Below are positions 19,832-22,743 of a stretch of 64,000 bases of DNA, in pieces. Both the position numbers and the translations under genes were made by a program. The DNA is from Escherichia coli (GTDB lineage: Bacteria; Pseudomonadota; Gammaproteobacteria; Enterobacterales; Enterobacteriaceae). Every line of letters begins with the position of its first letter. The stretch's first letter is position 1. The stretch lies in NCBI RefSeq assembly GCF_003334355.1, contig NZ_QOWP01000004.1; one strand, given 5' to 3'. The notes under the pieces were generated by a model. The model did no database searches, was not told the origin of the DNA, and was given only the letters and a program-made list of their open reading frames with translations.

Positions 19832-21565
19832 GTGAATATTCAGGCTCTTCTCTCAGAAAAAGTCCGTCAGGCCATGATTGCGGCAGGCGCGCCTGCGGAT
19901 TGCGAACCGCAGGTTCGTCAGTCAGCAAAAGTTCAGTTCGGCGACTATCAGGCTAACGGCATGATGGCAGTTGCTAAAAAACTGGGTATGGCACCGCGAC
20001 AATTAGCAGAGCAGGTGCTGACTCATCTGGATCTTAACGGTATCGCCAGCAAAGTTGAGATCGCCGGTCCAGGCTTTATCAACATTTTCCTTGATCCGGC
20101 ATTCCTGGCTGAACATGTTCAGCAGGCGCTGGCGTCCGATCGTCTCGGTGTTGCTACGCCAGAAAAACAGACCATTGTGGTTGACTACTCTGCGCCAAAC
20201 GTGGCGAAAGAGATGCACGTCGGTCACCTGCGCTCTACCATTATTGGTGACGCAGCAGTGCGTACTCTGGAGTTCCTCGGTCACAAAGTGATTCGCGCAA
20301 ACCACGTCGGCGACTGGGGCACTCAGTTCGGTATGCTGATTGCATGGCTGGAAAAGCAGCAGCAGGAAAACGCCGGTGAAATGGAGCTGGCTGACCTTGA
20401 AGGTTTCTACCGCGATGCGAAAAAGCATTACGACGAAGATGAAGAGTTTGCCGAGCGTGCACGTAACTACGTGGTAAAACTGCAAAGCGGTGACGAATAT
20501 TTCCGCGAGATGTGGCGCAAACTGGTCGACATCACCATGACGCAGAACCAGATCACTTACGATCGTCTCAACGTGACGCTGACCCGTGATGACGTGATGG
20601 GCGAAAGCCTCTACAACCCAATGCTGCCAGGAATTGTGGCGGATCTCAAAGCCAAAGGTCTGGCAGTAGAAAGCGAAGGGGCGACCGTTGTATTCCTTGA
20701 TGAGTTTAAAAACAAGGAAGGCGAACCGATGGGCGTGATCATTCAGAAGAAAGATGGCGGCTATCTCTACACCACCACTGATATCGCCTGTGCGAAATAT
20801 CGTTATGAAACACTGCATGCCGATCGCGTGCTGTATTACATCGACTCCCGTCAGCATCAACACCTGATGCAGGCATGGGCGATCGTCCGTAAAGCAGGCT
20901 ATGTACCGGAATCCGTACCGCTGGAACACCACATGTTCGGCATGATGCTGGGTAAAGACGGCAAACCGTTCAAAACCCGCGCGGGTGGTACAGTGAAACT
21001 GGCCGATCTGCTGGATGAAGCCCTGGAACGTGCACGCCGTCTGGTGGCAGAAAAGAACCCGGATATGCCAGCCGACGAGCTGGAAAAACTGGCTAACGCG
21101 GTTGGTATTGGTGCGGTGAAATATGCGGATCTCTCCAAAAACCGCACCACGGACTACATCTTCGACTGGGACAACATGCTGGCGTTTGAGGGTAATACCG
21201 CGCCATACATGCAGTATGCTTACACGCGTGTATTGTCCGTGTTCCGTAAGGCAGAAATTAACGAAGAGCAACTGGCTGCAGCTCCGGTAATCATCCGTGA
21301 AGATCGTGAAGCGCAACTGGCAGCTCGCCTGCTGCAGTTTGAAGAAACCCTCACCGTGGTTGCCCGTGAAGGCACGCCGCATGTGATGTGTGCTTACCTG
21401 TACGATCTGGCTGGTCTGTTCTCTGGCTTCTACGAGCACTGCCCGATCCTCAGTGCAGAAAACGAAGAAGTGCGTAACAGCCGTCTGAAACTGGCACAAC
21501 TGACAGCGAAGACGCTAAAGCTGGGTCTGGATACGCTGGGTATTGAGACAGTAGAGCGTATGTAA
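19832..21565 (+). CDS. argS: Arginine--tRNA ligase
   Basis: 577-aa ORF starting at GTG 19832; HIGH-type motif HVGHLRS; class I aaRS. Confidence 0.97.
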
Positions 21566-21584
21566 TCGATTTTTCGTGAGAGTA

Positions 21585-21619
21585 AAGCCTGATCAGGGTT
21601 ACCTGATCAGGCTTTTTTA
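21585..21619 (+). terminator. Rho-independent terminator of argS
   Basis: Hairpin aagcctgatcagg-gtta-cctgatcaggctt followed by TTTTTT. Confidence 0.85.
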
Positions 21620-21720
21620 TTGCCATCTAAATGTATTCTGAAAATGGACATGCCATTGTTTTCTCACTGTTGGATAAGAGGCCAGAAGCGTAATATCCGG
21701 CCCCAGGGAAACGATAACGG

Positions 21721-22230
21721 TTGAATTTAAGGAATACCGCAGTGTTTAAATTTCTTGTATTAACATTAGGCATTATCTCTTGCCAGGCTTACGCAGAAGA
21801 TACGGTTATAGTAAACGACCATGACATTTCAGCCATCAAAGATTGTTGGCAAAAAAATTCAGATGATGATACTGACGTTAACGTGATCAAATCATGCCTG
21901 CGACAAGAATACAATCTCGTCGATGCGCAATTAAATAAAGCCTATGGTGAAGCTTATCGTTATATAGAACAAGTGCCACGCACAGGTGTAAAAAAACCTG
22001 ATACCGAACAACTTAACTTGCTTAAAAAATCACAGCGAGCCTGGCTGGATTTTAGGGACAAAGAATGTGAATTAATCCTTTCAAATGAGGACGTTCAGGA
22101 TTTAAGTGACCCTTATTCTGAATCAGAATGGCTCTCATGTATGATCATACAGACCAATACGCGAACTCGCCAGTTGCAGCTATACCGTAACTCTGAAGAT
22201 TTTTATCCAAGCCCTTTGACAAGAGGATAA
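21721..22230 (+). CDS. yecT: DUF1311 (LprI-like) secreted protein YecT
   Basis: ORF with N-terminal signal peptide ...FKFLVLTLGIISCQAYA; AT-rich; start ambiguous (TTG 21721 or GTG 21742 with AAGGA RBS). Confidence 0.75.
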   Translation: MNLRNTAVFKFLVLTLGIISCQAYAEDTVIVNDHDISAIKDCWQKNSDDDTDVNVIKSCLRQEYNLVDAQLNKAYGEAYRYIEQVPRTGVKKPDTEQLNLLKKSQRAWLDFRDKECELILSNEDVQDLSDPYSESEWLSCMIIQTNTRTRQLQLYRNSEDFYPSPLTRG

Positions 22231-22350
22231 TTCACATATTTTTGGCATGTTTTGTTGCAATCTATTCCTGATAAATGATTGCAACAAAACATCCAGCCTT
22301 TTTCACTGAGTTATTAAACATACTCGCGAGCGCGTAATTTTTTTTGTCCT

Positions 22351-22743
22351 TCAGCGATAATTCACAATCACTTCATTACGTTGTACTTTCAGCGACGGAA
22401 TTAACCGCCCACCGCCAGGCACTTCCCAGATAAATCGCAACGGTTCTGCTGCCGCTATACCGGAAAAGGCCACGGTGGTTCCGCTCTGCCCCTCTAATTC
22501 GACACAACGAGATTGCGAACACAAGCGAACCCGCAGTCCTGAAGGTGTCGGGCCGATAAGCTGATAACGCCACGCTACCAGCGTCATCAATCCTGAAGCA
22601 GGTTGTCGCGTAGAAAGAGGCGCAGACGACATCGACTCACCGCGATGATTTAGCGTAATTCCTACACTACTTGCCTGCCACATCCCCTCCCCGGCGGCTT
22701 GCACCAGCAGCGGAAACAATAATATTGCTAATAAGGTTCTCAT
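22351..22743 (-). CDS. flhE: Flagellar protein FlhE
   Basis: 130-aa ORF with signal peptide MRTLLAILLFPLLVQAAGEG; start overlaps flhA stop by 1 nt. Confidence 0.93.
   Translation of the reverse strand: MRTLLAILLFPLLVQAAGEGMWQASSVGITLNHRGESMSSAPLSTRQPASGLMTLVAWRYQLIGPTPSGLRVRLCSQSRCVELEGQSGTTVAFSGIAAAEPLRFIWEVPGGGRLIPSLKVQRNEVIVNYR

What the first reader, a model, noticed from the sequence alone, without database searches (positions are those of the whole stretch)
22247..22292. Perfect 16-bp inverted repeat between convergent yecT and flhE
atgttttgttgcaatc and gattgcaacaaaacat form a perfect 16-bp palindrome arm pair separated by a 14-nt spacer. This is longer and more perfect than typical intergenic hairpins, and only a weak T-run (ccagcc then TTTTT) follows on the plus strand. 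It could be a yecT terminator, an RNA processing/stability element, or a protein-binding operator.
Basis: seen in the sequence. Interest (0 to 1): 0.35.

Follow-up and report, generated by a model that had tools for sequence, protein, structure and literature searches.

The report
Probable yecT terminator hairpin
The perfect 16-bp inverted repeat is real, but it is most likely an ordinary stem-loop that ends transcription of the silent, horizontally acquired gene yecT; its perfection is a quirk of a minority E. coli lineage.

Summary
It is the longest perfect short-range inverted repeat in the window, and no dinucleotide shuffle came near it.

The perfection is lineage-specific. Only 183 of 5426 complete E. 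coli genomes carry this exact allele. The conserved feature is a 14-bp stem with an 18-nt loop, a GGC/GCC clamp and a T5 run directly after the clamp on the + strand. The K-12 allele (2481 genomes) has an A-to-G change that gives G.U on the + strand RNA but C.A on the - strand.

The element starts 14 nt after the yecT stop. It lies in a 38.5%-GC yecT segment of about 786 bp that about a third of E. coli lack. It is single-copy, matches no Rfam family, and was not found in phages or true plasmids.

Published K-12 data place the flhE 3' end 93 nt beyond the hairpin, in a Rho-dependent region. So the hairpin neither terminates nor caps the flagellar transcript. No yecT 3' end has been mapped, because the gene is H-NS-silenced.

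Best reading: a non-canonical intrinsic terminator for yecT (confidence about 0.55). Interest is low.

The parts
22247..22262 (+). Left arm of the inverted repeat. The conserved core is 22247-22260. Position 22261 is T only in this lineage and G in all other sampled alleles.
22263..22276 (+). Loop of 14 nt in this strain. It is effectively 18 nt in most E. coli, because the top two pairs are missing there.
22277..22292 (+). Right arm. The conserved core is 22279-22292. Position 22277 is G here and in O157, A in most alleles, and C in E. whittamii. Position 22288 is A here and G in the K-12-type majority allele, which gives a G.U pair on the + strand RNA.
22244..22246 (+). GGC, the 5' half of a 3-bp G+C clamp that extends the stem. 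Invariant in all 9 alleles.
22296..22298 (+). GCC, the 3' half of the clamp, separated from the right arm by a 3-nt bulge (22293-22295). Invariant in all 9 alleles.
22299..22303 (+). T5 run (U-tract) directly after the clamp. Conserved in 8 of 9 alleles and weakened to GTTTA in E. whittamii. The - strand has no equivalent: the hairpin there is followed by GCCAAAAAT.
21742..22230 (+). yecT (LprI-family / PF07007 protein), the gene the hairpin is proposed to terminate. It is repressed by H-NS and activated by BglJ-RcsB in K-12.
21569..22354 (.). Low-GC (38.5%) variable segment carrying yecV, yecT and the hairpin. In about a third of E. coli (L001, L002) it is replaced by a roughly 52-bp argS/flhE terminator.
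22154..22350 (-). flhE 3' UTR, projected from K-12 mapping (MG1655 coordinate = window + 1,940,230). The flhBAE transcript reads through the hairpin and ends near 22154, inside antisense yecT. A Rho-dependent region lies near 22171.

Best explanation
The inverted repeat encodes the stem-loop of a factor-independent (intrinsic) transcription terminator for yecT, on the + strand.

Proposed mechanism: when yecT is transcribed, the RNA folds 14 nt after the stop codon into a 14-16-bp A+U-rich stem closed by a GGC/GCC clamp. This is followed directly by UUUUU, so RNA polymerase should release the transcript at about 22304-22307. That would also keep yecT transcription from running antisense into flhE-flhA.

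On the - strand the same sequence is only an internal hairpin in the long flhE 3' UTR, and it does not terminate there.

Shown here: the anatomy; the conservation of the stem, clamp and T-run; single-copy status; and read-through on the - strand in K-12. Inferred: that termination actually occurs on the + strand.
For: Position and orientation: the extended hairpin spans 22244-22298 and starts 14 nt after the yecT stop. T5 follows on the + strand, whereas the - strand has GCCAAAAAT.

Folding: the extended stem forms in the lowest-energy fold of every allele tested, at -21 to -25 kcal/mol with z of -3.6 to -6.8. For comparison, the mapped argS terminator next door is -19.5 kcal/mol with 6 of 8 U.

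Conservation: all 14 core pairs and all 3 clamp pairs hold in 9 of 9 alleles, including E. whittamii and Escherichia sp. E1V33. In those two outgroups the 28 core-stem nucleotides have 0 changes. The rest of the 120-nt spacer has 34/92 changed positions in E. whittamii (this count includes a 14-nt deletion) and 13/92 in E1V33.

Strand asymmetry: the only substitution inside the core stem is A-to-G at 22288. It is derived, and it is present in 2481 genomes. It keeps pairing as G.U on the + strand RNA but gives C.A on the - strand and breaks the DNA palindrome.

The - strand role is excluded by data: the flhE 3' terminus maps to MG1655 1962384, which is 93 nt past the hairpin. It lies next to a bicyclomycin-sensitive (Rho) region at 1962401.
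Against: No experimental yecT 3' end exists in the datasets I could read. yecT is silent in standard conditions.

The hairpin is not canonical. The loop is 14-18 nt, the stem is A+U-rich, there is a 3-nt bulge next to the clamp, and there are only 5 U. The consensus terminator scan did not call it.

There is no compensatory covariation. All stem pairs are invariant or change on one side only, so the alignment cannot separate an RNA structure from a DNA palindrome.

The U-tract is degraded in E. whittamii (GCCGUUUAA) while the stem is intact.

A single wobble-compatible transition is a coin-flip level of evidence for strand.
Confidence: 0.55

Rival explanations
1. It is a structural element of the flhBAE mRNA on the - strand. 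The hairpin sits in the 197-nt flhE 3' UTR and could slow 3'-to-5' exonucleases after Rho-dependent termination, or serve as a binding or processing site (Hfq, ProQ, RNase III). This could hold in addition to the yecT terminator role.
For: The - strand RNA folds equally well, at -21.3 kcal/mol. flhBAE transcripts cross the hairpin, because the flhE 3' end lies at MG1655 1962384. Termination downstream is Rho-dependent. An Hfq RIL-seq network contains a node named flhE.yecT.IGR, with 22 chimeras and one partner.
Against: The mapped 3' end is 93 nt beyond the hairpin, not at its base. Term-seq lists no 3' end at the hairpin. The majority K-12-type allele introduces a C.A mismatch into the - strand stem. 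About a third of E. coli have a working flhBAE operon without the element. The RIL-seq node has a predicted sRNA probability of about 1e-4.
Confidence: 0.15
2. It is a DNA-level protein-binding palindrome, that is, an operator or nucleoid-protein site. One candidate is a CytR-type site, because each arm contains the hexamer TTGCAA.
For: The arms are conserved as sequence with no covariation, which a DNA site would also produce. Published CytR consensus descriptions include TTGCAA and TGCAA-N-TTGCA, with flexible spacing of up to 2-3 helical turns. The two TTGCAA hexamers here lie 24 bp apart, centre to centre.
Against: The site lies between two convergent 3' ends, and no promoter-like site is present in the spacer. 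CytR needs flanking CRP sites, and matches to the CRP consensus around the element are at chance level with none flanking it. A spacing of 24 bp is not a whole number of helical turns. The majority allele breaks the palindrome at 22288. The comparative-genomics paper on the CytR regulon does not mention yecT or flhE.
Confidence: 0.07
3. It has no function. It would be a leftover palindrome carried in with the horizontally acquired yecT segment, kept only because the segment is young.
For: The segment is 38.5% GC against about 53% for its neighbours. It is present or absent as a block. Close relatives of YecT were found only in Escherichia. Overall diversity is low, with at least 96% identity within E. 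coli.
Against: In the two most diverged genomes the stems have no changes, while the rest of the spacer has 14-37% changed positions. The clamp and T-run are also kept. A 14-bp perfect inverted repeat is not expected by chance.
Confidence: 0.15
4. It is a small protein gene. ATG at 22247 opens a 20-codon ORF (MFCCNLFLINDCNKTSSLFH, 22247-22309, + strand). The mirror ATG at 22292 opens a 29-codon ORF on the - strand.
For: Both ORFs exist. A 14-aa protein, YecV, is annotated nearby in K-12.
Against: There is no Shine-Dalgarno sequence within 5-10 nt of the ATG, and the start codon is buried in the stem. Changes between alleles are mostly non-synonymous: N5K and D11N in K-12; N10S, D11N and S16W in E1V33. 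In E. whittamii the ORF is cut to 15 codons. It is not annotated in RefSeq records that do annotate yecV.
Confidence: 0.02

Closest known systems
Intrinsic (Rho-independent) transcription terminators of E. coli, for example the neighbouring argS terminator at 21584-21615
   Same: A stem-loop just downstream of a stop codon, with G+C pairs at the base of the stem followed directly by a U-run. It is directional. Its folding energy (-21 to -25 kcal/mol) is in the same range as the mapped argS terminator (-19.5).
   Different: The loop is 14-18 nt rather than 3-8. The stem is long and A+U-rich. A 3-nt bulge separates the main stem from the G+C clamp. There are only 5 U. No mapped 3' end exists. 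The consensus scan did not call it.
Bidirectional terminators between convergent genes, for example the argS/flhE terminator in E. coli strains that lack yecT (L001, L002)
   Same: It sits between two convergent genes, and the hairpin can form on both strands.
   Different: There is no A-run upstream of the stem, so the - strand RNA has no U-tract. The flhE transcript is mapped as reading through it.
Stem-loops that mark processed 3' ends of Rho-terminated transcripts (Dar and Sorek 2018, PMC6061677)
   Same: On the - strand it is a stable hairpin without a U-tract, upstream of a Rho-dependent termination region.
   Different: The reported flhE 3' end is 93 nt downstream of the hairpin, not at its base.
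CytR operators (TTGCAA / GTTGCATT half-sites)
   Same: Each arm contains TTGCAA, and the half-sites are inverted.
   Different: There are no flanking CRP sites and no promoter. The spacing is non-integral. The location is at gene 3' ends.

Membership tests
Intrinsic terminator | A stable RNA stem-loop forms on the strand of the upstream gene, shortly after its stop codon | tested here: met
   The hairpin at 22244-22298 starts 14 nt after the yecT stop. It appears in the lowest-energy fold of all four + strand alleles folded.
Intrinsic terminator | A U-rich tract directly 3' of the stem | tested here: met
   UUUUUCAC follows the GCC clamp (5 of 8 U). It is conserved in 8 of 9 alleles and is GUUUAACC in E. 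whittamii.
Intrinsic terminator | A compact, G+C-rich stem with a short (3-8 nt) loop | tested here: not met
   The loop is 14-18 nt. 12 of the 16 stem pairs are A-U. G+C pairs occur only in the clamp, after a 3-nt bulge. The consensus scan did not call it.
Intrinsic terminator | A transcript 3' end mapped at the U-tract | not testable with these tools
   No yecT 3' end appears in the Term-seq or TRS tables I could read. yecT is H-NS-silenced.
Bidirectional terminator | An A-run 5' of the stem, so that the opposite strand also has a U-tract, with 3' ends on both strands | tested here: not met
   The upstream flank is TTTTTGGC, which reads GCCAAAAA on the - strand. The flhE 3' end is mapped 93 nt beyond the hairpin.
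Dispersed repeats (REP/BIME, ERIC, MITEs) | Many copies per genome | tested here: not met
   There is one place per genome in every E. coli genome that has it. No other copy with up to 3 mismatches is above chance in the window.
Rfam RNA families | A score at or above the family's gathering threshold | tested here: not met
   The best hit is 23.6 bits against a threshold of 50. All hits are generic hairpin matches with E of 0.5 or higher.
CytR operator | CytR half-sites sandwiched between two CRP sites in a promoter | tested here: not met
   TTGCAA hexamers are present, but CRP-consensus matches are at chance level (6 found, 5.2 expected) and none flanks the element. There is no promoter in the spacer.
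Small protein gene | A ribosome-binding site and a conserved reading frame | tested here: not met
   There is no Shine-Dalgarno sequence. Changes are mostly non-synonymous. The ORF is truncated in E. whittamii.

The most novel reading that the evidence does not exclude
The conserved hairpin could be a cis-acting element of the long flhBAE 3' UTR, for example an Hfq/ProQ or RNase III site. It could also act as a barrier between convergent yecT and flagellar transcription. It arrived with the low-GC yecT segment. If so, strains with and without the segment would differ in post-transcriptional control of the flagellar export genes.
Probability: 0.08. Interest if true: 0.4.

Novelty: new member of a known kind. 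Interest (0 to 1): 0.12.

Why it matters
Little changes if this reading is right. It would add one non-canonical terminator to the E. coli catalogue. It would also explain how a silenced, horizontally acquired gene is kept from transcribing into the flagellar export operon when it is switched on.

The practical lesson for the scan is that the feature which caught the eye, 16 perfect pairs, comes from two recent point changes in about 3% of E. coli genomes. It is not a conserved property.

The surrounding biology is more interesting than the hairpin. yecT is a present-or-absent, low-GC segment, and its nearest non-Escherichia relatives sit in type VI secretion effector loci.

Tried and rejected
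- Rfam at permissive E-values gave only sub-threshold generic hairpin hits.
- The sigma-70 promoter and consensus terminator scan found nothing in the spacer.
- A search for further copies of the arm in the window gave nothing above chance.
- The whole yecT segment searched against phages gave no match.
- The same search against plasmids gave only mis-filed chromosomal pieces or contaminants.
- The inverted-repeat pattern was absent from viral contigs.
- YecT searched against one genome per species found only E. whittamii and Escherichia sp. E1V33.
- More distant YecT homologues (about 60% identity) have no such hairpin downstream. DNA similarity to them stops at the coding sequence.
- CytR/CRP operator idea: the motif resemblance is real but the required context is missing.
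- Small-ORF idea: rejected on conservation.
- Tus/Ter, Fur, IHF, dif and FliA-promoter resemblances were considered by eye against consensus sequences recalled from memory. No convincing match was seen, and none was tested further.
- Supplements of two other 3'-end papers were either not held as text or had no entry for yecT or flhE.
- My first structure string for pair counting was mis-registered by 2 columns. It was redone correctly.

Full report
OBSERVATION. The window carries argS (19832-21565, +), yecT (21742-22230, +), flhE (22351-22743, -) and flhA. RefSeq annotation of identical or near-identical E. coli genomes confirms these gene names. The inverted repeat is exactly as described: ATGTTTTGTTGCAATC at 22247-22262 and GATTGCAACAAAACAT at 22277-22292, 16 of 16 complementary, with 14 nt between the arms. 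It is the longest perfect short-range inverted repeat in the 64-kb window. The next is the 14-bp argS terminator. In 60 dinucleotide-preserving shuffles of the window the longest perfect arm was 9-12 nt. As RNA it folds at -20 kcal/mol on the + strand and -21.3 on the - strand, with z about -7.

WHAT IS CONSERVED AND WHAT IS NOT. I aligned the yecT-flhE spacer from this window with eight other alleles: K-12 MG1655, O157:H7, O145:H28, three further E. coli, E. whittamii and Escherichia sp. E1V33.
- Every other allele has G, not T, at 22261.
- Most have A, not G, at 22277.
- The top two pairs of the '16-bp' stem therefore exist together only in this lineage.

A census using exact 68-nt queries against 5426 complete E. 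coli genomes gave these counts:

| Allele | Genomes with exact match |
|---|---|
| Window allele (perfect 16 bp) | 183 |
| 14-bp perfect allele (strain E308 type) | 538 |
| K-12 allele | 2481 |

The K-12 allele has a further A-to-G change at 22288. Both outgroups have A there, so G is the derived state. It gives U.G on the + strand RNA, C.A on the - strand RNA, and an asymmetric DNA site.

Four things are invariant or nearly so in the nine alleles:
- the 14 core pairs (22247-22260 with 22279-22292);
- a GGC/GCC clamp (22244-22246 with 22296-22298) across a 3-nt bulge;
- most of the loop;
- the T5 run at 22299-22303, conserved in eight of the nine.

In the two outgroups the 28 core-stem positions carry no change. 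The other 92 spacer positions carry 34 changes in E. whittamii (this includes a 14-nt deletion) and 13 in E1V33. There is no compensatory double change anywhere. The alignment therefore shows constraint but cannot by itself tell an RNA helix from a DNA palindrome.

CONTEXT. The hairpin belongs to a variable segment.
- 3550 genomes match the whole yecT-flhE query, and about 1700 match only from the flhE end.
- In the genomes that match only the flhE end (L001, L002), argS is followed after about 52 bp by flhE. A single A-run/hairpin/T-run terminator lies between them.
- The segment in the window (about 21569-22354) is 38.5% GC against 53-55% for argS, flhE and flhA.
- That composition fits the published finding that yecT is repressed by H-NS/StpA and activated by BglJ-RcsB (PMC3950696).
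- The segment is not found on phages. The only 'plasmid' hits are mis-filed chromosome pieces or contaminants.
- The repeat is single-copy in every genome that has it.
- It matches no Rfam family and was not found in viral contigs.

STRAND AND MECHANISM. On the + strand the extended hairpin starts 14 nt after the yecT stop. It is followed directly by UUUUUCAC. On the - strand it is followed by GCCAAAAAU, which is not a U-tract. The architecture is therefore that of a one-way intrinsic terminator for yecT.

Published K-12 data agree for the - strand (MG1655 coordinate = window + 1,940,230).
- The TRS analysis of RNAtag-seq places the flhE 3' terminus at MG1655 1962384 and labels it 'distant primary', giving a 197-nt 3' UTR. 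That corresponds to window 22154, which is 93 nt past the hairpin and inside antisense yecT (PMC10687069).
- Adams et al. list a bicyclomycin-sensitive Rho termination region at 1962401 on the - strand. They list no curated Term-seq 3' end at the hairpin (PMC7815308).

So the flagellar transcript reads through the hairpin and is ended by Rho further on. The hairpin is neither the flhE terminator nor its mature 3' end.

No dataset reports a yecT 3' end. This is expected for a silenced gene, and it leaves the + strand role inferred rather than shown.

Three points count against a textbook terminator. The loop is 14-18 nt. The stem is A+U-rich with a bulge next to the clamp. The simple consensus scan did not call it. 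The folding energy of -21 to -25 kcal/mol and 5 of 8 U compare reasonably with the mapped argS terminator, at -19.5 kcal/mol and 6 of 8 U.

RIVALS.
(a) A role within the flhE 3' UTR. The RNA is there, and an Hfq RIL-seq network has a weak node for this spacer. However, the majority allele weakens the - strand stem, a third of E. coli do without the element, and the mapped 3' end is elsewhere.
(b) A protein operator. Each arm contains TTGCAA, which resembles CytR half-sites as summarised in PMC3454398. There are no flanking CRP sites above chance and no promoter in the spacer. The site lies between two 3' ends.
(c) A neutral leftover. This is contradicted by the contrast between stem and flank substitution rates.
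(d) A 20-codon ORF starting at the first base of the repeat. It has no ribosome-binding site, mostly non-synonymous variation, and truncation in E. whittamii.

COMPARISON AND NOVELTY. The element works most like an intrinsic terminator and meets the position, hairpin and U-tract criteria. It does not meet the compact G+C-rich stem criterion, and the mapped-3'-end criterion could not be tested. I found no description of it in the papers searched. It is best filed as a new, unremarkable and somewhat non-canonical member of a known kind.

VERDICT. Interest is low, about 0.12.

Noticed in passing
window 21569-22354; L001 and L002 2958-3011: yecV, yecT and the hairpin form a 786-bp, 38.5%-GC segment. 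It is present in about 3550 of 5426 complete E. coli genomes. In about 1700 it is replaced by a roughly 52-bp shared argS/flhE terminator. Close relatives of YecT were otherwise found only in E. whittamii and Escherichia sp. E1V33. Which state is ancestral was not resolved.
   Followed up: partly
L014 2501-2986; L015 1965-2986; L016 2501-3085: The nearest non-Escherichia YecT homologues (about 60% identity, PF07007 LprI) include two in type VI secretion loci. They lie just downstream of a CHAP-domain or pesticin/lysozyme-like protein and upstream of PAAR and IcmF/TssM genes. In one locus a second LprI gene sits alongside. E. coli yecT may therefore be an orphan type VI immunity gene against a cell-wall-degrading effector.
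   Followed up: partly
window 22226-22236 and 22356-22366: A perfect 11-bp direct repeat, GATAATTCACA, sits at the yecT stop and inside the flhE 3' end. It brackets the 130-bp spacer that holds the hairpin. My rough chance estimate is 0.03-0.08 for this region. It does not fit a target-site duplication of the whole segment, and it remains unexplained.
   Followed up: partly
window 22154-22171 (- strand), projected from MG1655 1962384-1962401: In K-12 the flhBAE mRNA has a 197-nt 3' UTR that runs antisense into the last 77 nt of yecT and ends in a Rho-dependent region. Strains that carry yecT and strains that lack it must therefore end this flagellar operon by different mechanisms: Rho in one case, a shared intrinsic terminator in the other.
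   Followed up: partly
L004 3077-3829 (strain EC06); window about 22176: In strain EC06 an IS1 element sits in the 3' part of yecT, and the whole flh-che-mot region is missing, with uspC following directly. This matches published IS1-mediated motility deletions that end in yecT or just upstream of flhE (PMC3203608; bioRxiv 10.1101/2020.12.04.412072).
   Followed up: no
L017 2750-2760 (window about 21990-21997): A run of A's inside yecT is one base shorter in a Shigella-like contig. This truncates YecT to 110 aa. Many database entries for S. flexneri YecT are partial, which suggests yecT is decaying in that lineage.
   Followed up: no
window 22247-22309 (+) and 22203-22292 (-): Both arms begin with ATG on their own strand, so the palindrome opens a 20-codon ORF on the + strand and a 29-codon ORF on the - strand. 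Neither looks conserved as a protein.
   Followed up: yes
window 22325-22347: A second + strand feature lies between the hairpin and flhE: a 3-bp CGC/GCG mini-hairpin followed by a T8 run (T7 in K-12, interrupted in other alleles). The mini-hairpin and the start of the T-run fall within a 14-nt deletion in E. whittamii. It may be a weak back-up terminator or nothing at all.
   Followed up: no
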